Numbered from the stretch's first letter, positions 2,166 to 12,505 are shown. The stretch is DNA of 64,000 bases from Candidatus Omnitrophota bacterium (GCA_023819035.1 JAMWCL010000001.1:2226-66225); one strand, 5' to 3'. The notes: generated by a model not told the origin, from the letters alone. Program-made: numbers and translations.

Positions 2166-3713
2166 TTATCTTAGATGTTGGGAAAAATACCCTCCGGTAA
2201 GTGCATCTAAAGAGGCGGTGAGTTCCTTTAGTCTTAATTCTTTCTCCATTCTTTTTCTTTTCTCCTGCCAAGGAATATTCTCTAACTCCATCTTTGTCCT
2301 AAGGCGCTCAAAGTAGAGTTTATTTACCTCATCTAATATCTCCTGGCGCAACTCTACCATTAATCTTGAACGCACATCGATATTTGTCTGGTCTTCATTC
2401 CAGATAAGCCGACTTAAATCCCAGCTTAAAGTTATATCCCATTCTATCGCTGCCCTTCCGCGCACAAGAAGATCATCTCCATTTTTAGTTGTAGAACCCG
2501 TCTCCCAATGCCAAAGATCGGTAATATCCCTTTCTATGCTAACGCTTAAATGGGGAAGCCAAGCACTTCTTCTTGCCTGCCTACGCCAATCTTTTATTTT
2601 TTCGTTAGAAACCTCCGCATATTCAATCGCTGCCTGCTGAACCTGGCTAATAGTAGGTTCGTTCTGAAGATATAACCCAAAAAGTCCATCATCTTTGTCT
2701 GTCTTTGCTGTTCTTTTCTTAAACAGACCCTTATCAGAAACAACCCATAGATTATTTTGTCGGTCCAAGACCAAAGCTTTAAATTCCTTAGCAAAAAGTC
2801 CAAAGGAGAGATCCTCCCATTTGTTTTGTCTATATTTAAATATACCTTTCTTGGTAAGGACATATAATTCAGAATCTTCAGAAACCAGGATAAACCTTAT
2901 ATCTAAACTGATTAAACCCTCAGAAGGGAATAAATCCCAGGTTCTACCTTTATCTTGACTTTTATATATCCCTTTGAAGGTTGCTAAATAAAGAATATCT
3001 GGATTATGAGGGTCAAACCCTAAGGATCTCACTAAAAATAGGCTTGGACCCTTAATCTCTTCAAGAACCTCTTCTTGGTAATTCTCTTCTTCTTTCTTTG
3101 CTCTTTTAAAAATTCTTTTGTCTAATCCTGCCTCCCCTTCAATTTTATATAGACCATCTTGACCGACTACATAAAGCTGTTTATCCTTAGGATGGATGGC
3201 TATATTTAATATAGAAATATTACCTAATCTACCCGGATACTTATGCCAACTTAACCCCTTATCCTTACTTACAAAAAGCCCCTGATTCGTTCCTAAATAG
3301 ATTCTCTCCGAAAGGATAGCCAAACAAAGCACCTGGTTTTCTAAGATATTCTTTCCTTTAAAGATTCTTTGCCAGCTTATTCCATCATTTTGGCTGTAAT
3401 AAAGTCCGTTATTAGAAGCGGCGTATAAAGAAACCTTATCCTCAGGATCGAATAATAAAAAATTTATGCCTTTATTTTTTCCTTGCATTAAAAATATATA
3501 TCTCCAGGTTAACCCGCCATCCTGACTCTTAAGCACACCTTTATCGGTACCTATGTAGATAATATGAGGATGATCTGGCTTTAATAAGATTGTGTTTATA
3601 TTTAGATTACCTTTTACTACCTCCTCCCAAATAATCTCTTCGGCAGCAAGATTAAAGCTCATAAAAAACCCTCCTAATATCCCTAAAAATATTATCTTTC
3701 TCATCCTTACCAC
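2166..3713 (-). CDS. Secreted BNR/Ycf48-like repeat (beta-propeller) protein with an uncharacterised C-terminal domain.
   Basis: N-terminal signal peptide. Repeated DGGxTW-type motifs (DGGLTWRYI, NDGISWQRI, DKGLSWHKY, DKGRTWDLF). C-terminal ~170 aa has no family I recognise. Confidence 0.5.
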   Translation of the reverse strand: MVRMRKIIFLGILGGFFMSFNLAAEEIIWEEVVKGNLNINTILLKPDHPHIIYIGTDKGVLKSQDGGLTWRYIFLMQGKNKGINFLLFDPEDKVSLYAASNNGLYYSQNDGISWQRIFKGKNILENQVLCLAILSERIYLGTNQGLFVSKDKGLSWHKYPGRLGNISILNIAIHPKDKQLYVVGQDGLYKIEGEAGLDKRIFKRAKKEEENYQEEVLEEIKGPSLFLVRSLGFDPHNPDILYLATFKGIYKSQDKGRTWDLFPSEGLISLDIRFILVSEDSELYVLTKKGIFKYRQNKWEDLSFGLFAKEFKALVLDRQNNLWVVSDKGLFKKRTAKTDKDDGLFGLYLQNEPTISQVQQAAIEYAEVSNEKIKDWRRQARRSAWLPHLSVSIERDITDLWHWETGSTTKNGDDLLVRGRAAIEWDITLSWDLSRLIWNEDQTNIDVRSRLMVELRQEILDEVNKLYFERLRTKMELENIPWQEKRKRMEKELRLKELTASLDALTGGYFSQHLR

Positions 3714-3800
3714 CTCCTACTATAACTGACGAAGATAAAGGATAAATCTTACAAGACTTTTTACTTCCTTGAAGTTAAGATTTTTTGGTATATTTTAAAG

Positions 3801-3931
3801 TGGGCTTTATCCGATAAAGGTAGACCCTAAGAAATTAGGGGACGCAAGGCTACGGGTTTAAGGATAAGAAGTTGAATCCTTCTTATCGATGATCGCCGAG
3901 CTTCCGAAGATAAAGGAGGAGCTTGGTTTTT
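3801..3931 (+). ncRNA. Candidate small RNA (~130 nt) in a 460-bp intergenic region.
   Basis: Plus-strand extended -10 promoter (TTGAAG 3769-3774; TGgTATATT 3786-3794). Perfect 9-bp hairpin 3863-3871/3879-3887. Terminator-like stem (ccgagcuuc / ggagcuugg with two G-U pairs, 3896-3926) followed by UUUUU at 3927-3931. Both flanking genes are on the minus strand. Confidence 0.35.
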
Positions 3932-4175
3932 ATCTTAAAAAAGGATTAAAGATGGAATGCCCTTATTTAAAAAACCTCGCATTCCTGTATGATTCTTTAT
4001 TATTACTGTAAATTGGAAGGAGAGGAATCTAGATTTAAACCTAAGGATGTGCAAAGTCAGATAAGACCCTGTCAGGCGAATTTTTTATTTTGTGAGATAT
4101 TAAGAAAGATAACCTCTTAAATTCCACCCTCCACTCATAATTTTCTTCCGAAGATCTTTTAAATACCTAATTTCT

Positions 4176-6368
4176 TTATTTCTTTAATTCTTTTTTAATA
4201 TTTTCTGCCTCATAAGGATTAATCTCTTCGTAAATCCTTAAGGCTGAAGAAAGGTATTCCTTGGCTTTATCTTTATTATTTTTCTTTTTATAAAGCAGGC
4301 CTAAATTATAGTAGGTTTCTGCCAATTCCAATGGTCCATCTATACCTTCACAGATAGCCAATGCCTTAAAGAAGAAGTTCTCCGCTTCTTTAAGGTTATC
4401 CATCTCTAAGTATAATTGTCCCAACATATTATAATCAGAAGCTAGATTTGGTAGATTACCTTGCCTCTGGTCTATGCTTAAGCCTTTTAAGTAAAGCTCT
4501 AAGGCTTTCGGGTATTGTTTCTTAAATAAATATATCTCACCTAAATTAAAATAATAATCACTAGATTCATCTTTTAACCTCAACGACTCAAATATAGCTT
4601 GGCTTTTTTGATAAAATTCCTCAGCAGTATCAAAATCATCCTTATTGGTAAATAAAAGGGCTAAATCAAAATAATCGCAGGCAAGGTTATAACGGTGCTG
4701 CTGGATATACCTTCTTTCTCGATTGATCTCGGAGCTTTTGGTTAATAAACTCAGTGCCTCCTCAGGGTTATTCTTATCCATATAACAGAGCGCTAATCTC
4801 CTTAAGGTAACTGCCTCATTTACTCTATCCTTATGCGCCCTGCTTAAATCTAATGCCTTCTGATAAAAATCAAATGCCTTAGGATAATCCCCTTTTAGAT
4901 AGTAGAGCCAGCCGATACCGATATAACTTAAGATAAGATGCTTTGTGTCATTTTTCTTCTGGCTATAAAAGGAGTAATCAAAATAATATTTTAAAGCCAT
5001 CTGTCGGTTACCCAAACGGTTATAGGTCTGTGCTAATAAAGGATAAACATTTAAAAAGAAGGGGTCTTTCTTAATTAACGATTCGCCTAGATAGAGTACC
5101 TGCTGATTTCTACCTGAAAGGTATGCCTGCTTAGATTTAAGATATAAAAAATAGGTATGAGGATTTAAAGTAGGTAGCCATAGAGATAAATAAATAATTA
5201 TTAGCCCAAAAAAGAACAAAGAACTCAGGATGGCTAATGGCCTTTTAAATCTTTTAAAAGGAAGGCTTCTTTTTTTGGTAAGGACAATTATCTTTGGGCT
5301 GGGTTTAAATAAGGAAAAGTTAGGGTCTCCATAAAGCAGATAACCTGCCCAGTCAAACATACCCAGGCCCCTTTCTTTTATAAGTGCTAAGCGCGCAAGT
5401 CTTATGGATTCCCCTACTGTTCTGCCCATAATTAGATGATTATAGAATTCCTGCGCAAAATAAAGGCTTGTTTTATCCTCTATCTTCTTTATGGTTCCGA
5501 TATAATGCCTGACCCCGCAAAAAAGGAATGTTGAGGCAAGATTAAAGTTTTTCTCAAGGTAGACTGACTGATTTGAATCAATCTTAGCACTATGACAGGC
5601 ATTAGAAAATATAAGCAAAGGAAGACTTAAGGTAGAACCTAGATTGATAATCTCTAAGGCGGTTAGTCTTCCATCGGAGAATACCCAACCCGATTCCTGA
5701 GGATTCTTTAGATCATATTCACAATGCCCAGCAAAATGAATAATATCATAATCCCCCAGATGCTTTTTTATATAAAGGGTATCGATCTGGGTAGATTTAA
5801 AATCAATCCTTATAAGCTGGGGGTTGAAGCTAAAACGATCCCGGATCTTTATCCCTTCAAGATAACTAGAACTTAAATCTCCCGTAGGATTTGCTAATAT
5901 CAACATTTTAAGCGGAACATCTAAACTCCGGTAGCGCAAGCGTGAAGGCTCTTTTTTTGTATGCACTGACCTTCCTAAATTAAACTTAAGAGAAAAAAAA
6001 TCCTTTCCGTCATATAAAAGCTCCCAAGGGATATGGATTAACTCTTCATCTATAGATAACAAAAGACTGCCCCCTGAGAGCTCGCTTAATCTTTCTTTAA
6101 TTGCTTTAGTAAGAAGCTGTTCCCAGAGAAGCATACCTACTTTCTTAAGTGCTAATCTCGGATCAAGCTCTGCAGTATATCTTATATCGGTGTTTTCCAG
6201 TAAAGAAAATAATTCGCAAGAAAGATGACCTATCTGCTTTAAGGAGACCTTGATCTGTTGATAGTGTTTTAATGTAGAAGAAAGCTCCTCCTTTTCAAAA
6301 AGCGCCATCTTAAGTGCATCTCTCTGCTTTAATATCTCCAAGACCCAGGTTTTTTTAGGTGAAGACAT
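4176..6368 (-). CDS. CHAT-domain (caspase-like) protease, then a transmembrane helix, then C-terminal TPR repeats.
   Basis: 730 aa. CHAT His/Cys dyad motifs IIHFAGHCEY and LLIFSNACHSA. Hydrophobic helix LAILSSLFFFGLIIIYLSLWL. About 7-8 TPR-like repeats at the C-terminus. Confidence 0.75.
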   Translation of the reverse strand: MSSPKKTWVLEILKQRDALKMALFEKEELSSTLKHYQQIKVSLKQIGHLSCELFSLLENTDIRYTAELDPRLALKKVGMLLWEQLLTKAIKERLSELSGGSLLLSIDEELIHIPWELLYDGKDFFSLKFNLGRSVHTKKEPSRLRYRSLDVPLKMLILANPTGDLSSSYLEGIKIRDRFSFNPQLIRIDFKSTQIDTLYIKKHLGDYDIIHFAGHCEYDLKNPQESGWVFSDGRLTALEIINLGSTLSLPLLIFSNACHSAKIDSNQSVYLEKNFNLASTFLFCGVRHYIGTIKKIEDKTSLYFAQEFYNHLIMGRTVGESIRLARLALIKERGLGMFDWAGYLLYGDPNFSLFKPSPKIIVLTKKRSLPFKRFKRPLAILSSLFFFGLIIIYLSLWLPTLNPHTYFLYLKSKQAYLSGRNQQVLYLGESLIKKDPFFLNVYPLLAQTYNRLGNRQMALKYYFDYSFYSQKKNDTKHLILSYIGIGWLYYLKGDYPKAFDFYQKALDLSRAHKDRVNEAVTLRRLALCYMDKNNPEEALSLLTKSSEINRERRYIQQHRYNLACDYFDLALLFTNKDDFDTAEEFYQKSQAIFESLRLKDESSDYYFNLGEIYLFKKQYPKALELYLKGLSIDQRQGNLPNLASDYNMLGQLYLEMDNLKEAENFFFKALAICEGIDGPLELAETYYNLGLLYKKKNNKDKAKEYLSSALRIYEEINPYEAENIKKELKK

Positions 6369-6374
6369 AACCTC

Positions 6375-7076
6375 TTAGGTCTTTACCTCTAAATGTAGAT
6401 AGCCAATTAATTCTTTAAGTCGAGATACCTGGATAGTGTAAGTGCCTAAAGGAATTCCTTCGAAGGTAACCTTACCTGATGAGCTTAGGTATGACTCTAA
6501 TTCAGTATCATCTTTTATTAGAGTAATCCTTAAGTCTTTCATTAACTGCAAAGGTCTTCTTTTCCTTACTATTATACTTAAATCAAAGGCCTTTGTCTTC
6601 TTGTTTATTATCTTTATCTCTATCTTAAATTCCTTAAAATCCTTTGCGATCCTTAGCTCATCCTTAAAATCCTTAATCTGGCGACTCCGCAATACTGCTT
6701 GAGAAATAAGCTCTTTACCTAAAAGAATCTCGCCGGTAGTCTTTAAGATCCTGATCAGGTCTTCCTTAAATTGTAAAACTACCTCAAGGCTCTCAGGAGG
6801 GGTTTGGGAAGGAAGCAAAGATGCTATGTTAGCAAGGAGCTGTTGAGGGAACTCTTTTAAAGGCATTTCCTCTAATCTTATCAGAAGATTTACCCGCTCC
6901 ATACATCCCTTACAACTAATCAGATGTCTCTTTATTTCTTCAGAATCCTCAGAGGACAGACGGGATTCTAAAAAACAAGTTAAGGTCTCCTCATCAGGAT
7001 GGATATCCGACTCTTTTTGTTCTTTCTTCCATACCTTATAGACCCTCTGAATTACCCTTTCAAGTTTATTTAACAT
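6375..7076 (-). CDS. Putative anti-sigma factor (zf-HC2 zinc finger).
   Basis: 233 aa with H-x3-C-x2-C motif (HLISCKGC) near the N-terminus, directly downstream of the ECF sigma gene. Confidence 0.55.
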   Translation of the reverse strand: MLNKLERVIQRVYKVWKKEQKESDIHPDEETLTCFLESRLSSEDSEEIKRHLISCKGCMERVNLLIRLEEMPLKEFPQQLLANIASLLPSQTPPESLEVVLQFKEDLIRILKTTGEILLGKELISQAVLRSRQIKDFKDELRIAKDFKEFKIEIKIINKKTKAFDLSIIVRKRRPLQLMKDLRITLIKDDTELESYLSSSGKVTFEGIPLGTYTIQVSRLKELIGYLHLEVKT

Positions 7077-7112
7077 ATTTTATTTTCTCCTAATATAATA
7101 GACGAAAAATTT

Positions 7113-7721
7113 TTAATTATCTAACATGAATCCTTTATGTCTAAAACAATCCTTTAATTTATCAATGATTCTTTTTTTACGCACATCTACTGCCGGACGC
7201 GAAAGCTTAAGGTGTCTGCTTATCTGCTCCAAGGCTAATCGTTGGTTAAGATATAATTCTAAAAAATACCTTTCCTCAATATTTAATCTTTCAATGCAAT
7301 CCTTTAGACTTAAAAGCATCTCTTCCGATTCGAGTTTATCTAAAACTGAGGTAGAATCATCCCGAAGGGTATCCTTTAAACTTAATCCTTGCTCATTTTC
7401 CTCCTCCAAAGAAACCAGATTCCTTTTCTTTCTTAAATAATCTATAGTATAATTAATCACTACCACCCTCAGCCAGCTTGCTAAGCTGCAACCGTTTTTT
7501 GCCTTAAAGGTTCTTAACTTTTTAAAATTATCCTGGGTAAGAAAAACAAATATCTCTTGAAAAATATTTTCTACCTCTTCAGAGTCAGCTAAAGATTTAC
7601 CTTTAAGTTTTAAAACATTATAGATATAACTATAAATAAGCCTGGAATATCTTTTTAAAAATTCATCCCAGGCAACCCGCTCACCTTCAAGGCAACGCCT
7701 AAGGAATTTCAAATCATTCAT
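7113..7721 (-). CDS. ECF-family RNA polymerase sigma factor (sigma-70 regions 2 and 4).
   Basis: 202 aa. Region 2-like YSRLIYSYIYNVL and a C-terminal helix-turn-helix (LALEQISRHLKLSRPAVDVRKKR). Confidence 0.8.
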   Translation of the reverse strand: MNDLKFLRRCLEGERVAWDEFLKRYSRLIYSYIYNVLKLKGKSLADSEEVENIFQEIFVFLTQDNFKKLRTFKAKNGCSLASWLRVVVINYTIDYLRKKRNLVSLEEENEQGLSLKDTLRDDSTSVLDKLESEEMLLSLKDCIERLNIEERYFLELYLNQRLALEQISRHLKLSRPAVDVRKKRIIDKLKDCFRHKGFMLDN

Positions 7722-7737
7722 TTTTATCTATAGGAAT

Positions 7738-8394
7738 CTAAATAACGCCCAATTGATGCGCAAGCCGTAAAGGTTCGGGTAAACGATATTTAAGGGTGCA
7801 CCTTAAAATTATCCTTATACAATCCTTAAAACCTACCTTATACCCCGGTGAAACAAAGAGAGGTTTTACGAAATCCTTAGTTCTTAAGACAATCCCGATT
7901 TTTTTATTTTCTTCATTAAAAAGATAAGCAAAACTTCCCCGTTTCGGACCGGGTTGCTTATATCTACCCCATAACCAACTCTTGGCACAACCCATCGTAG
8001 GCTTACCTAAAAGGATCCCCATATGAGTGGCTATACCCATATTGCGGGGATGGGCGATCCCCTGACCATCAAAGATAAATATATCGGGTTGTCTTTTCAA
8101 ATCTTGCAAGCAAGCTTCTAAAACCGGACCTTCCCGAAAGCTTAAAAGGCCAGGGATATAGGGATAGCTTATCCTCTTTGTTTTTCGTACCCATTCTAAT
8201 AATCCTAACTCAGGATAACTTAAAATAACCACCACCCCAATTGCTAAATTATCCTTAAAATTAACATCTGCGCCGGCGATTAAGTGGATTTTTTCCTTAA
8301 GCTTAGTAAGCTTTATCTTCCTGCTTAATTCCTCCTGAAGCCTTCTTGCCTGAATTGGCTTAAGGTCCCAGGGATGTAATCTTTTTAGCTTCAT
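7738..8394 (-). CDS. nfi: Endonuclease V.
   Basis: Motifs GADV, YIPGLLSFREGP, DGQGIAHPRNMGIATH, PTMGCAKS. Confidence 0.85.
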   Translation of the reverse strand: MKLKRLHPWDLKPIQARRLQEELSRKIKLTKLKEKIHLIAGADVNFKDNLAIGVVVILSYPELGLLEWVRKTKRISYPYIPGLLSFREGPVLEACLQDLKRQPDIFIFDGQGIAHPRNMGIATHMGILLGKPTMGCAKSWLWGRYKQPGPKRGSFAYLFNEENKKIGIVLRTKDFVKPLFVSPGYKVGFKDCIRIILRCTLKYRLPEPLRLAHQLGVI

Positions 8395-9113
8395 CTTCTT
8401 ATCATTGGCACAAACCTTACCGGAATAATACTCTTTTCTTGAAGCTTGCCCTTCTTTTTAGTAATTAATTTAAGCTCCTGATAGGTAGTCCCTACCGGGA
8501 TAACCAATCTTCCCTCTTCAGCTAATTGCTCAATTAAAGGCTCAGGGATCTTTTCAGGTGCACAGGTAACGATAATTGCCTCAAAGGGTGCTACCTGAGG
8601 CCAACCTAAATAACCATCTCCACATCTTACCTGGATATTTTGATAACCCAATTCCTTTAATAATCTCTCTGCAGACTGGGCAAGTTCAGGAATAATCTCA
8701 ATGGTATAGACCTCTTTGGCTAATTCTGCTAAGATGGCTGCTTGATAACCACTACCTGTACCAATCTCTAAGACCTTCTCATCACCCTTAAGTTCCAAAA
8801 GCTCGGTCATTAAAGCCACAATATAAGGTTGAGAGATAGTCTGACTATACCCAATCGGTAAAGGGGTATCCTCATAAGCCAAATGCTGGATCCTCTCTGG
8901 CACAAACCTATGCCTTTCTACCTTTAGCATTGCCTCTAATACACGCTTATCCTTAATCCCCCTTGCCTGAATCTGCTGGCTAACCATCCTCTTACGCAAA
9001 AACTGAAAATCAATCTTAAGGTTAGCTTCTGTAGTTGCGTCATCAGCAGAGGCAAAACTAATAAACAAAATCAGCCATAAGATTACTAAATTTATAACCT
9101 TTTTTACTTCCAT
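8391..9113 (-). CDS. pcm: Protein-L-isoaspartate O-methyltransferase with signal peptide.
   Basis: QTISQPYIVALMTELLEL and the SAM-binding VLEIGTGSGYQAAILA. Confidence 0.85.
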   Translation of the reverse strand: MEVKKVINLVILWLILFISFASADDATTEANLKIDFQFLRKRMVSQQIQARGIKDKRVLEAMLKVERHRFVPERIQHLAYEDTPLPIGYSQTISQPYIVALMTELLELKGDEKVLEIGTGSGYQAAILAELAKEVYTIEIIPELAQSAERLLKELGYQNIQVRCGDGYLGWPQVAPFEAIIVTCAPEKIPEPLIEQLAEEGRLVIPVGTTYQELKLITKKKGKLQEKSIIPVRFVPMIRR

Positions 9114-12088: not shown

Positions 12089-12505
12089 CTATTCTAATTT
12101 TAACCGGCTTATTGTCTCTCTTACAAAATCTCCTATCTCTTTCTTATCCTCAGGTTCGATCTTTAAAAAATAAATTCCTATGCGGTACTCACCTTCTCCA
12201 AAGGGAATGCTGTAGCGGACCTCTCCTACTATCTCCATTGGTCCATAGAAACCTACATCCTCTTTCTCAACCTTAAATAAAGTAAATCTTAATAAAACTG
12301 TGGTCTTAGGCTCAAGATGATAGTTGGTTAAGATTGCCATGCCTTCTTCACTTAAATCAAGGATATTACCCTTTATCTCTTTATCCCCGACAACCAAGCG
12401 CATAGCCAGCGGTTCATTTACCCTATAGATTACGGTAAGATTAACCCTCACCCTTTTTGACCTTCTTCTTTCCATATCCCCATAGTTATTATTCATCGCC
12501 ATCAC
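12089..12505 (-). CDS. PilZ domain (c-di-GMP binding) protein.
   Basis: RRRSKRVRV ... DLSEEGMAI arrangement (RxxxR / DxSxxG). Confidence 0.6.
   Translation of the reverse strand: MMAMNNNYGDMERRRSKRVRVNLTVIYRVNEPLAMRLVVGDKEIKGNILDLSEEGMAILTNYHLEPKTTVLLRFTLFKVEKEDVGFYGPMEIVGEVRYSIPFGEGEYRIGIYFLKIEPEDKKEIGDFVRETISRLKLE

What the first reader, a model, noticed from the sequence alone, without database searches (positions are those of the whole stretch)
4176..7721. ECF sigma / zf-HC2 anti-sigma / CHAT protease operon with inverted CHAT-TM-TPR architecture
An ECF sigma gene (7113-7721) is followed at 36 nt by a zinc-finger anti-sigma-like protein with no obvious transmembrane helix (6375-7076). 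That is followed at 6 nt by a 730-aa protein with an N-terminal CHAT caspase-like domain (His/Cys dyad present), a single transmembrane helix and C-terminal TPRs. The usual CHAT layout is TPR first and CHAT last. Here the domains are inverted and split by a membrane anchor. The protease domain may sit on one side of the membrane and the TPR sensor on the other. One plausible model is that the CHAT protease is the regulated protease controlling the anti-sigma factor. That would be a non-canonical sigma/anti-sigma signalling cascade, taking the role RseP or DegS plays elsewhere. pcm and nfi lie immediately upstream in the same orientation.
Basis: partly seen in the sequence, partly recalled or inferred. 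Interest (0 to 1): 0.6.

Follow-up and report, generated by a model that had tools for sequence, protein, structure and literature searches.

The report
Membrane caspase-like protease wired to sigma factor
A three-gene switch (alternative sigma factor, its soluble zinc-finger inhibitor, and a membrane-anchored caspase-like protease with an outward-facing sensor domain) is real, conserved across Omnitrophota and beyond, and probably lets an outside signal free the sigma factor by cutting its inhibitor, though the cutting step is untested.

Summary
The three minus-strand genes sit exactly as described, in a Candidatus Omnitrophota genome.

The protease keeps its His/Cys pair in 80 of 80 relatives. 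It has one membrane helix, and charge bias places the protease domain in the cytoplasm and the TPRs outside. Sigma, inhibitor and protease lie in the same order in every related locus with enough upstream DNA (77 of 77). The trio also recurs in distant lineages where the outer domain is a long TPR array, a trypsin-like domain or DUF4384.

New here: a conserved ECF-type promoter (GTTAGATT-N14-CGTCTATT) precedes the inhibitor-protease pair and a secreted beta-propeller gene. In relatives, the sigma gene itself has a housekeeping-type TGnTATAAT promoter and an apparently leaderless mRNA.

The "inverted" layout is not unusual. HetF, the family's namesake, is CHAT-TM-TPR. Proteases that cut a soluble sigma inhibitor are already known from CRISPR accessory systems (Craspase/Csx30, CalpL/CalpT).

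Cleavage of the inhibitor is supported only indirectly. Genes are tightly coupled. The inhibitor tracks the cytoplasmic protease module in evolution. It also carries a conserved, apparently flexible Arg loop, and HetF cuts after Arg.

Verdict: a new variant of a known kind, of moderate to high interest.

The parts
7113..7721 (-). ECF-type sigma factor gene (202 aa; sigma2 about residues 22-100, sigma4 about 143-190)
   Evidence: TIGR02937 sigma70-ECF scores 86.3 bits against a cutoff of 42.9. Pfam finds r2 and r4. Orthologues lie directly upstream of the middle gene in every related locus with enough upstream DNA. Homologues in distant loci score E 5e-57 to 2e-23.
7100..7125 (-). ECF-type promoter in front of the anti-sigma and CHAT genes: GTTAGATAATTAAAAATTTTTCGTCT. 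The -35 element lies in the last Leu-Asp codons of the sigma gene. The -10 element CGTCTATTA lies in the spacer, 23 nt before the ATG of the middle gene.
   Evidence: PWM score 31.8 bits, against a maximum of 9.4 in 30 shuffled windows. The same motif sits at the same place in 73 related loci. Sequence read.
6375..7076 (-). Soluble anti-sigma-like protein (233 aa). It has an N-terminal zinc-finger anti-sigma domain (H26, H51, C55, C58), a conserved low-confidence loop at 115-139 with invariant R130 (codon 6687-6689), and a C-terminal beta-sandwich at 140-231.
   Evidence: Alignment A2. zf-HC2 in 30 of 35 members. HxxxCxxC in 75 of 75 and no TM. AlphaFold model. Only generic Ig-like fold matches.
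5304..6368 (-). Cytoplasmic N-terminal domain plus CHAT caspase-like protease domain of the 730-aa protein (residues 1-355). Catalytic His215 is codon 5724-5726 and Cys258 is codon 5595-5597.
   Evidence: PF12770 E 5.6e-28. The dyad is kept in 80 of 80. H215 and C258 fall on a His and a Cys of Csx29 in a weak alignment. In the search of 1.84 billion cluster representatives, 691 matched residues 1-422 at E<=1e-30.
5178..5240 (-). Single transmembrane helix (residues about 377-397), followed by the conserved WLPxxNP motif
   Evidence: Hydrophobicity peak in 24 of 24 aligned sequences. There are 4-9 Lys/Arg in the 20 residues before it and 1-4 after it. Modelled as helix 375-397. Motif seen.
4176..5162 (-). 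Extracytoplasmic TPR domain (residues about 403-730), the putative sensor
   Evidence: TPR_12 E 3.8e-47. Modelled with pLDDT above 90. In distant relatives of the trio this domain is replaced by long TPR arrays, a trypsin-like domain or DUF4384.
3809..3908 (+). c-di-GMP-I riboswitch aptamer in the CHAT/propeller spacer, antisense to the operon. A hairpin and U-run follow at about 3886-3935. It is a neighbour of the system; membership is uncertain.
   Evidence: Rfam RF01051 scores 64.2 bits against a gathering score of 35. Fold. Same-family aptamers lie in this spacer or just downstream of the CHAT gene in at least 14 related loci.
3727..3752 (-). Degenerate copy of the same ECF-type promoter in front of the propeller gene: GTAAGATTTATCCTTTATCTTCGTCA
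   Evidence: PWM score 11.0 bits, just above the shuffle maximum of 9.4. Strong copies sit at this place in 48 related loci.
2166..3704 (-). Secreted BNR/Sortilin-like beta-propeller protein, the predicted target of the sigma factor. The likely start is ATG 3704, not GTG 3713.
   Evidence: Pfam Sortilin-Vps10, BNR and PSII_BNR. Signal-peptide-like N-termini in relatives. Lies downstream of the trio in 52 loci at variable distance. Preceded by the conserved promoter.

Best explanation
This is a transmembrane signalling module that controls an ECF sigma factor through a HetF-like membrane caspase-type (CHAT) protease.

Proposed mechanism, with each step marked:
1. The sigma gene is transcribed from a housekeeping-type extended -10 promoter. 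In relatives the mRNA appears leaderless. This is shown by sequence conservation in relatives. In this window the element is degenerate and nfi ends 16 nt upstream.
2. The sigma factor is held by the soluble 233-aa protein through its N-terminal zinc-finger anti-sigma domain. This is inferred from the H-x24-H-x3-C-x2-C motif and zf-HC2 matches.
3. The 730-aa protein spans the membrane once, with the N-terminal domain and CHAT protease in the cytoplasm and the TPR domain outside. This is inferred from the positive-inside bias.
4. A signal sensed by the outer domain activates the protease. The protease binds the C-terminal beta-sandwich of the anti-sigma factor and cuts its conserved flexible loop, probably after the invariant Arg130. 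The fragments are then degraded and sigma is released. This is inferred and untested.
5. Free sigma reads the conserved promoter GTTAGATT-N14-CGTCTATT. It thereby raises expression of the anti-sigma/protease pair (negative feedback) and of a secreted BNR beta-propeller, the output. The motif and its positions are shown. That this sigma reads the motif is inferred.
For: - Identity of the parts.
- Catalytic dyad kept in 80 of 80, HxxxCxxC in 75 of 75, and no TM in the anti-sigma factor.
- Topology: 24 of 24 sequences have one TM helix, with 4-9 Lys/Arg before it and 1-4 after it.
- Synteny: sigma, middle gene and CHAT are conserved in order in every related locus with enough upstream DNA (77 of 77), whereas the nfi and pcm genes that flank the trio upstream in this window are found in none of the 83 related loci.
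- Coupling: the median gap from the middle gene to CHAT is 5 nt, often an overlap.
- Conservation across architectures: the trio persists where the outer domain differs. Cases are CHAT-TM-trypsin in Nitrospinota, CHAT-TM-long TPR of 1533 and 1762 aa, cyclase-CHAT-TM-DUF4384, and a 62% GC lineage. All have a TM helix after the CHAT domain and a soluble homologue of the middle protein that keeps the loop Arg. This is the pattern expected for a conserved transmitter with swappable sensors.
- Promoter: PWM hits of at least 14 bits in 1.08 Mb of related loci comprise 73 before the middle gene, 48 before the propeller gene and 9 elsewhere. The only hits in the 64-kb window are at those two places. 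The motif is kept in the 62% GC relative.
- Conserved loop: residues 115-139 are among the most conserved of the anti-sigma factor yet are modelled with low confidence.
- Co-evolution: distance matrices of the middle protein correlate best with the cytoplasmic part of the protease. r is 0.73, against 0.57 with sigma and 0.61 with the TPR domain. The partial r is 0.53, against 0.21.
- Precedents: HetF has the same layout and cuts its substrate after Arg117, before Ser118. Csx29 cuts a loop in the C-terminal domain of Csx30, whose N-terminal domain binds an ECF-like sigma.
Against: - No direct evidence links the protease to the anti-sigma factor. No complex model could be made.
- The CHAT domain itself was modelled poorly (pLDDT below 50 over residues 133-372), so active-site geometry and the S1 pocket are unknown.
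- The mirror-tree correlations are not corrected for shared phylogeny, and one control is part of the same polypeptide.
- The anti-sigma factor has a ZAS-type motif and could respond to redox on its own.
- The promoter in front of the anti-sigma/CHAT pair means the protease could simply be a regulon member.
- In this window the propeller promoter copy is degenerate (11 bits).
- One distant relative (L084) lacks the Cys ligands, and two (L084, L088) lack the promoter motif.
Confidence: 0.55

Rival explanations
1. The anti-sigma factor is a self-contained redox or zinc sensor of the ZAS type. The CHAT-TM-TPR protein is an output of the regulon that acts on other substrates, for example envelope or division proteins as HetF does. 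It is not the regulator.
For: H-x24-H-x3-C-x2-C is invariant. An ECF-type promoter drives the middle gene and CHAT, so CHAT is formally a target. A thioredoxin gene is a frequent downstream neighbour. HetF's known substrate is a division inhibitor, not an anti-sigma factor.
Against: A plain ZAS sensor needs only about 100 residues. Here an extra conserved loop and beta-sandwich co-vary with the cytoplasmic protease module. The near-zero gap or overlap between the middle gene and CHAT is kept across five protease architectures and several lineages. One distant member has lost the Cys ligands but kept the trio. The thioredoxin lies beyond the propeller gene at variable distance and has no copy of the promoter.
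Confidence: 0.2
2. The CHAT-TM-TPR protein is a membrane tether or co-inhibitor that holds the sigma/anti-sigma complex at the membrane. Signalling occurs through a conformational change or through self-cleavage of the protease, not through cleavage of the anti-sigma factor.
For: Tight gene coupling and co-variation fit any stable complex. Self-cleavage in trans has been proposed for the CHAT domain of DdvA. The juxtamembrane linker at residues 350-376 is Lys/Arg-rich.
Against: The linker is poorly conserved, whereas the Arg loop of the anti-sigma factor is nearly invariant even in distant members. The catalytic dyad is kept in 80 of 80, so some proteolysis is under selection.
Confidence: 0.13
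3. The protease switches the response off by degrading the sigma factor or the sigma/anti-sigma complex. It is induced by sigma itself as negative feedback.
For: The ECF-type promoter drives the protease but not the sigma gene. Sigma distances also correlate with the cytoplasmic protease module; partial r is 0.39.
Against: The correlation is weaker than for the anti-sigma factor. This model gives no role to the conserved beta-sandwich and loop of the anti-sigma factor, or to a variable outward-facing sensor domain.
Confidence: 0.08

Closest known systems
HetF of Anabaena sp. PCC 7120 (CHAT protease; PMC8406250, PMC9457339)
   Same: Same domain order, CHAT - one TM - TPR. It is membrane-bound with an active protease domain, and it cuts a specific regulatory protein (PatU3) after an Arg followed by Ser. 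The middle protein here has an invariant Arg followed by Ser or Gly in a flexible loop.
   Different: Not an orthologue: the NCBIfam HetF model scores 20.4 bits against a cutoff of 1200. HetF's protease region is longer (1-555). HetF acts in cell division and heterocyst development. In the two HetF papers read here, its reported partner and substrate are FtsI and PatU3, not a sigma or anti-sigma factor.
Craspase: Cas7-11/Csx29 (TPR-CHAT) with Csx30 and CASP-sigma, type III-E CRISPR (PMC10028731)
   Same: A CHAT protease cuts a soluble two-domain inhibitor. The inhibitor's N-terminal part binds an ECF-like sigma factor. Its C-terminal domain carries the recognition surface and the cleaved loop. 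Cleavage relieves inhibition.
   Different: In Craspase the protease is cytoplasmic, is TPR-first, and is switched on by target RNA through Cas7-11. Here there is no CRISPR context. The rest of the window holds polysaccharide synthesis genes, ligA, pckG, ftsK and pnp, and there are no PADLOC matches. Here the protease is membrane-anchored with an outward-facing domain. Csx30 is not a zinc-finger anti-sigma factor.
CalpL/CalpT/CalpS, type III CRISPR accessory system (10.1101/2024.05.08.593097; described in 10.1101/2023.06.23.546230)
   Same: A three-part system of protease, soluble anti-sigma factor and ECF-like sigma factor. The signal activates the protease, which cuts the anti-sigma factor.
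   Different: The protease is a SAVED-Lon activated by cyclic oligoadenylate. It is not a CHAT protease and is not a membrane sensor.
DdvA/DdvS of Myxococcus xanthus (PMC11506125)
   Same: An ECF sigma factor with a CHCC/HHCC-type zinc anti-sigma domain, linked to a TPR-CHAT module across the membrane. Proteolysis by the CHAT domain has been proposed as the trigger.
   Different: In DdvA everything is one polypeptide, in the order anti-sigma domain - TM - periplasmic TPR-CHAT. Its active site is incomplete, RseP is needed afterwards, and it is reported only from Myxococcota and one Comamonas species. Here the anti-sigma factor is a separate soluble protein, the CHAT domain is cytoplasmic, and only the TPR domain is outside.
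Regulated intramembrane proteolysis of RseA by DegS and RseP (E. coli sigma-E)
   Same: An envelope-side signal is turned into proteolytic destruction of an anti-sigma factor. The sigma factor induces its own inhibitor.
   Different: RseA is a membrane protein cut in sequence by two proteases on the two sides of the membrane. Here the anti-sigma factor has no TM helix, and one single-pass protease would carry the signal across.
ECF54 group, with CHAT, subtilase and carboxypeptidase-domain genes in its neighbourhood (PMC8999054, PMC7826278)
   Same: A genomic link between ECF sigma factors and CHAT-domain proteins has been noted before, and proteolytic control has been proposed.
   Different: ECF54 is an actinobacterial group described as lacking any anti-sigma factor. 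Casas-Pastor et al. report a 4Fe-4S protein as its conserved neighbour. I could not classify this sigma factor with the ECF group models, so any relationship is untested.

Membership tests
ECF (group 4) sigma-70 family | Only sigma2 and sigma4 domains, about 200 aa, matching the ECF superfamily model | tested here: met
   TIGR02937 scores 86.3 bits against a cutoff of 42.9. Pfam r2 E 1e-7 and r4 E 1.3e-4. Length 202 aa.
ECF (group 4) sigma-70 family | Co-transcribed cognate anti-sigma factor directly downstream | tested here: met
   A zinc-finger anti-sigma-like gene lies 36 nt downstream. It is conserved in every related locus with enough upstream DNA (77 of 77).
ECF (group 4) sigma-70 family | Positive autoregulation from an ECF-type promoter upstream of the sigma gene (common but not universal) | tested here: not met
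   There is no ECF-type motif upstream of the sigma gene. In 65 of 71 relatives a -10-like hexamer ends 5-9 nt before the ATG, and 59 of them have the TG extension (TGnTATAAT). The ECF-type motif lies downstream, before the anti-sigma gene.
Class I / ZAS-type anti-sigma factor (Pfam zf-HC2, PF13490) | H/C-x23-26-H-x3-C-x2-C zinc motif in an N-terminal helical domain | tested here: met
   H26, H51, C55 and C58 are invariant in A2. HxxxCxxC is present in 75 of 75. Helices 2-87 in the model.
Class I / ZAS-type anti-sigma factor (Pfam zf-HC2, PF13490) | Score above the Pfam gathering threshold | tested here: inconclusive
   The window copy scores 17.3 bits against 22.2. 30 of 35 relatives match at E<=0.01, best 1.4e-6. 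A distant member scores 29.4 bits. The profile-to-PDB hit to the DdvA N-terminal domain is only E 0.13.
Class I / ZAS-type anti-sigma factor (Pfam zf-HC2, PF13490) | Binds and inhibits the cognate sigma factor | not testable with these tools
   No complex prediction or experiment was available.
CHAT domain (PF12770), caspase-like clan CD cysteine peptidases | Full-length match to the domain model | tested here: met
   E 5.6e-28, 98.7 bits against a cutoff of 24, covering profile positions 3-289 of 289.
CHAT domain (PF12770), caspase-like clan CD cysteine peptidases | Catalytic His and Cys at the conserved positions | tested here: met
   H215 lies in HFAGH and C258 in SNAC, and both are kept in 80 of 80. 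In a weak alignment (E 0.16), H215 falls on His585 of Csx29 and C258 on a Cys I count as 627. That these are the published catalytic pair is from memory.
CHAT domain (PF12770), caspase-like clan CD cysteine peptidases | Caspase-like fold and protease activity | tested here: inconclusive
   The AlphaFold model of this region is unreliable (pLDDT below 50), so no fold search was run. Activity cannot be tested here.
HetF (NCBIfam NF045509, cell division protein HetF) | CHAT - TM - TPR domain order | tested here: met
   compared with PMC8406250 Fig. 4A.
HetF (NCBIfam NF045509, cell division protein HetF) | Equivalog-level sequence match | tested here: not met
   20.4 bits against a cutoff of 1200. 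It has the same layout but is not an orthologue.
Type III-E Craspase (Cas7-11 with Csx29, Csx30, CASP-sigma) | Association with Cas7-11/gRAMP and a CRISPR array; TPR N-terminal to CHAT | tested here: not met
   The ten largest remaining ORFs of the window checked with Pfam are ordinary chromosomal genes. No PADLOC matches. The domain order is reversed and a TM helix is present.
DdvA-type anti-sigma factor | Anti-sigma domain, TM helix and periplasmic TPR-CHAT in one polypeptide | tested here: not met
   There are two separate genes. The anti-sigma factor has no TM helix. The CHAT domain is predicted to be cytoplasmic.
c-di-GMP-I riboswitch (Rfam RF01051) | Score above the Rfam gathering threshold over the whole model | tested here: met
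   64.2 bits against 35, model positions 1-87 of 87, window 3809-3908 on the + strand.

The most novel reading that the evidence does not exclude
The trio defines an unrecognised, multi-phylum class of envelope-to-gene signalling. A single-pass membrane caspase-like protease has a conserved cytoplasmic N-terminal-domain/CHAT transmitter and an interchangeable outward-facing sensor (TPR arrays, trypsin-like domain, DUF4384). It directly cuts a dedicated soluble anti-sigma factor at a conserved Arg loop. This would replace the two-protease intramembrane cascade of classical ECF systems. It would also give free-living, non-CRISPR CHAT proteases a general physiological role. In Omnitrophota it would be close to a phylum-wide core circuit, with a secreted beta-propeller as output and a c-di-GMP riboswitch embedded in the locus.
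Probability: 0.45. Interest if true: 0.78.

Novelty: new variant of a known kind. Interest (0 to 1): 0.63.

Why it matters
ECF sigma factors are among the main bacterial signalling routes, and new ways of controlling them are still being catalogued. Bacterial CHAT proteases are very numerous, but substrates have been described for only a few: HetF, Craspase and SAVED-CHAT are the three met in the papers read here. If the model holds, a large set of uncharacterised CHAT proteins gets a testable substrate and role. In the search of 1.84 billion cluster representatives, 691 matched residues 1-422 at E<=1e-30. The logic seen in CRISPR-linked systems (protease cuts soluble anti-sigma factor) would then be an instance of a wider, older signalling design that also works across the membrane. 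Omnitrophota are uncultured and poorly understood. Here the analysis gives a conserved regulon with a defined promoter, a defined output gene and a likely link to c-di-GMP signalling. The compact parts (protease, cleavable inhibitor, orthogonal sigma factor and promoter) could also be useful as a synthetic switch.

Tried and rejected
- Structure of the 730-aa protein from a 24-sequence alignment. The CHAT region came out unreliable, so I ran no fold search on it.
- Sequence and profile searches of the CHAT module against solved structures. These gave only weak hits: Csx29 at E 0.16, 8tl0 at E 0.028 and DdvA at E 0.31. They are usable only for checking the dyad.
- Sigma factor against solved structures by sequence. 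No hit at E<=0.001.
- ECF group assignment. There are no ECF group models in the tools. The Casas-Pastor paper does not mention CHAT or Omnitrophica in its main text, and no supplements are held. ECF54, the one group with a reported CHAT context, is actinobacterial and lacks an anti-sigma factor. I did not equate it with this system.
- Idea that the riboswitch controls a PilZ gene, as in L037. Rejected, because that PilZ gene is present in only two related loci.
- Rfam search for the structured insert between promoter and propeller gene in some loci. Nothing was found.
- Third homologue search, with a profile of distant anti-sigma relatives, to map their phyla. Only 9 hits, almost none named.
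- Cluster look-up for names of distant protease relatives. Only the Nitrospinota CHAT-trypsin cluster carried names.
- pcm and nfi as part of the system. Rejected, because they are absent from all 83 related loci.
- Defence-system reading. No PADLOC match for the CHAT domain, the anti-sigma factor or sigma, and the surroundings are housekeeping genes.

Full report
**1. The observation**

The minus strand carries three tightly spaced ORFs exactly as described.
- The sigma gene is 7113-7721 (202 aa). A 36-nt gap follows.
- The middle gene is 6375-7076 (233 aa). A 6-nt gap follows.
- The CHAT gene is 4176-6368 (730 aa).

nfi (7738-8394) and pcm (8391-9113) lie upstream in the same orientation.

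The sigma gene matches the ECF superfamily model, TIGR02937, at 86.3 bits against a cutoff of 42.9.

The 730-aa protein has a full-length CHAT domain (PF12770, E 5.6e-28, residues 77-348) and C-terminal TPRs.

The middle protein scores below threshold for zf-HC2 in this copy: 17.3 bits against 22.2.

The protease is 100% identical to a protein of a Candidatus Omnitrophica metagenome-assembled genome.

**2. The family and its conserved residues**

The protease has more than 744 full-length relatives at 52-78% identity, and nearly all of the named ones are from Omnitrophota. Relatives occur in 239 species-representative genomes.

In alignments, H211, H215 (HFAGH) and C258 (SNAC) are invariant. 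All 80 loci keep the His and Cys, three of them with conservative changes nearby. In a weak alignment to the type III-E protease Csx29 (E 0.16), H215 falls on His585 and C258 on a Cys that I count as residue 627. That these are its published catalytic pair is my recollection, not checked here.

A single hydrophobic helix at about residues 377-397 is present in 24 of 24 sequences. There are 4-9 Lys/Arg in the 20 residues before it and 1-4 after it. There is no N-terminal signal peptide. The protease domain is therefore predicted to be cytoplasmic and the TPR domain extracytoplasmic. A conserved WLPxxNP motif follows the helix.

The middle protein has invariant H26, H51, C55 and C58. This gives H-x24-H-x3-C-x2-C, the zinc anti-sigma pattern.
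- 30 of 35 members hit zf-HC2.
- 75 of 75 keep HxxxCxxC.
- None has a TM-like segment.

Its model shows three regions:
- N-terminal helices;
- a very conserved but low-confidence loop at 115-139, which contains the invariant R130 in VLRSRQIKDF;
- a confident C-terminal beta-sandwich at 140-231, with no specific structural relative.

**3. Synteny**

I ran tblastn with the window proteins against 83 related loci. Sigma, middle gene and CHAT lie on one strand in the same order in every locus with enough upstream DNA. The six loci without sigma are cut by a contig end.

nfi and pcm are never there. The BNR propeller, thioredoxin and DRTGG genes are frequent downstream neighbours at variable distance.

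The median gap from the middle gene to CHAT is 5 nt. The median gap from sigma to the middle gene is 39 nt.

**4. Regulatory signals (new)**

*The sigma gene.* In 65 of 71 relatives a -10-like hexamer ends 5-9 nt before the sigma ATG, with no Shine-Dalgarno sequence. In 59 of them it has the TG extension (TGnTATAAT). This indicates a housekeeping-type promoter and a leaderless or nearly leaderless mRNA. In this window the element is degenerate (TATAGA). nfi ends 16 nt upstream.

*The ECF-type promoter.* A bipartite motif, GTTAGATT-N14-CGTCTATT, is conserved at two places.
- The first copy overlaps the last Leu-Asp codons of sigma, about 45-53 nt before the middle gene.
- The second copy lies before the propeller gene.

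A matrix built from 112 sites was scanned over 1.08 Mb of related loci. It finds 73 hits before the middle gene, 48 before the propeller gene and 9 elsewhere. In the 64-kb window the only hits are at 7131 (31.8 bits) and 3758 (11.0 bits). The shuffle maximum is 9.4.

The CGTC -10 element and the spacing are typical of ECF promoters; this point is from my own knowledge of the ECF literature. The restriction of the motif to this locus argues that the adjacent sigma factor reads it.

The circuit would therefore be: sigma made constitutively, with anti-sigma plus protease and the secreted propeller induced by sigma.

**5. Beyond Omnitrophota**

[quoted passage not shown] 691 matched at E<=1e-30. 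The matches have many architectures.

I looked up the gene context of eight distant relatives. Seven carry homologues of the middle gene, and six of those also show sigma. Sigma homologues score E 5e-57 to 2e-23. Middle-gene homologues score E 2e-42 to 1e-14.

| Relative | Architecture or feature |
|---|---|
| L084, L085 | CHAT-TM-short TPR |
| L086 | 62% GC lineage; keeps both ECF-type promoter copies and the TATAAT element before sigma |
| L087, L089 | CHAT-TM-long TPR, 1533 and 1762 aa; contigs cut within or before the sigma gene |
| L088 | CHAT-TM-trypsin, Nitrospinota |
| L090 | cyclase-CHAT-TM-DUF4384 |

All have a TM helix after the CHAT domain. All have a soluble middle-protein homologue that keeps the loop Arg. 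A CHASE2-CHAT relative (L091) shows no sigma on its short contig.

The constant part is thus sigma, anti-sigma and the cytoplasmic protease module. The outer domain is swappable. This is what a sensor-transmitter design predicts.

**6. Who talks to whom**

Distance matrices over 70 taxa show that the middle protein tracks the cytoplasmic protease module best. r is 0.73, against 0.57 with sigma and 0.61 with the TPR domain. The partial r given TPR is 0.53, and the reverse is 0.21. This is weak evidence, because shared phylogeny is only partly controlled.

**7. What is known**

- HetF has the same CHAT-TM-TPR layout and cuts PatU3 after Arg117, before Ser118.
- Csx29 cuts a loop in the C-terminal domain of Csx30, whose N-terminal domain binds an ECF-like sigma factor.
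- CalpL cuts CalpT to act on CalpS.
- DdvA fuses an anti-sigma domain to a periplasmic TPR-CHAT.
- ECF54 has CHAT genes nearby but no anti-sigma factor.

None of these matches the arrangement here. PADLOC has no match for the CHAT domain, the anti-sigma factor or sigma, and the window is ordinary chromosome. I found no paper describing this trio.

**8. Mechanism and verdict**

The best reading is as follows. An outside signal sensed by the TPR domain activates the cytoplasmic CHAT protease. The protease cuts the soluble anti-sigma factor in its conserved Arg loop and frees sigma.

I put this at about 0.55. That the three genes form one functional unit I put far higher, at about 0.9.

The rivals are a redox-sensing anti-sigma factor with the protease as output, a non-cleaving tether or self-cleaving protease, and a protease that degrades sigma.

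The idea of a protease acting on a soluble anti-sigma factor has precedent. I rate it a new variant of a known kind, with interest 0.63.

Noticed in passing
window 3809-3908 (+); also L037 7430-7509, L009 10279-10369 (-), L018, L024, L028, L031, L035, L036, L040, L049, L050, L056, L058, L064: A c-di-GMP-I riboswitch aptamer (64.2 bits against a gathering score of 35) lies in the 460-nt spacer between the CHAT gene and the propeller gene, antisense to the operon. A TGGTATATT -10-like element precedes it, and a hairpin plus U-run follows. No ORF longer than 43 aa lies downstream, so read-through would run antisense into the 3' end of the CHAT gene. Same-family aptamers (some scoring as the GGC variant) sit just downstream of the CHAT gene in at least 14 related loci, mostly on the operon strand. 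L009 shares the antisense arrangement.
   Followed up: partly
upstream of the sigma gene in related loci, e.g. L036 about 860-883 and L086 about 2625-2646; window 7722-7737: In 65 of 71 relatives a -10-like hexamer ends 5-9 nt before the sigma ATG, with no Shine-Dalgarno sequence. In 59 of them it has the TG extension (TGnTATAAT). This indicates a leaderless or nearly leaderless mRNA from a housekeeping-type promoter. In the window the element is degenerate (TATAGA), and nfi stops 16 nt upstream.
   Followed up: partly
L004 about 3613 (-), L011 about 6516 (-), L021 about 6532 (-), L051 about 6469 (-), L053 about 6537 (-), L069 about 10273 (+): IS200/RAYT-like tyrosine-transposase-like genes (about 160-226 aa) lie next to the trio in several species. 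They are preceded by the same GTTAGA(A/T)..CGTCTATT promoter plus AGGAGG. They may belong to the same regulon, or may have captured its promoter.
   Followed up: partly
L010, L011, L012, L030, L032, L037, L043, L057, between the ECF-type promoter and the propeller start codon: A 60-300-nt insert with a conserved hairpin (GGGCACAAGTTATGGAG...GACATAACTTGTATGCCCGAACTTAT) separates the promoter from the propeller gene. In L037 it comes with a GIY-YIG-like 87-aa ORF. There is no Rfam match. It may be a small mobile element or a structured leader.
   Followed up: partly
downstream of the riboswitch in L031, L050, L064, L066, L082, L037 (small peptide) and in L018, L028, L049, L061, L073, L082 (83-aa protein): Two recurrent small ORFs follow the riboswitch in relatives. 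One is a very basic peptide of about 35-40 aa (MRRMHRK..AKRHHRKPVSFIQAIRLYLGMPA). The other is a protein of about 83 aa (..HRVITMLGREEIDFLDKLGKDALFSTGHKLSYNEILRGLIDFAMEAG..). Neither is present in the window.
   Followed up: no
upstream regions of the sigma gene in many loci, e.g. L001, L010, L049, L053: Long GC-rich inverted repeats of one recurring type (GGGGACACCC...GGGTGTCCCC or GGGACGGTTCT...AGAACCGTCCC) followed by T-runs sit just before the sigma promoter in many different species. They look like terminators of the upstream gene with an unusually conserved stem sequence.
   Followed up: no
window 3704-3713: The propeller ORF is listed from GTG 3713. However, AGGAGG lies 8 nt before ATG 3704, and relatives start at the equivalent MRK/MKK, so 3704 is the likelier start.
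   Followed up: yes
L084 2880-3680, L085 2871-3680, L088 1459-2169: In distant relatives of the trio, a gene of 236-269 aa with no Pfam match lies directly upstream of the sigma gene on the same strand. It is absent from the Omnitrophota loci.
   Followed up: no
window 12089-12505 (-): A PilZ-domain protein (138 aa, E 1.6e-12), another c-di-GMP-related gene, lies 5 kb from the locus. It is 46% identical to the PilZ gene that follows the riboswitch in L037.
   Followed up: no
record titles of L011, L023, L029, L039, L040, L045, L060, L062 and others: Several loci with about 50% identical trios carry record titles such as 'uncultured Planctomycetales', 'Margulisiibacteriota' or 'Patescibacteria group'. 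Given their close similarity and synteny to Omnitrophota loci, these are probably mislabelled. I did not check this.
   Followed up: no
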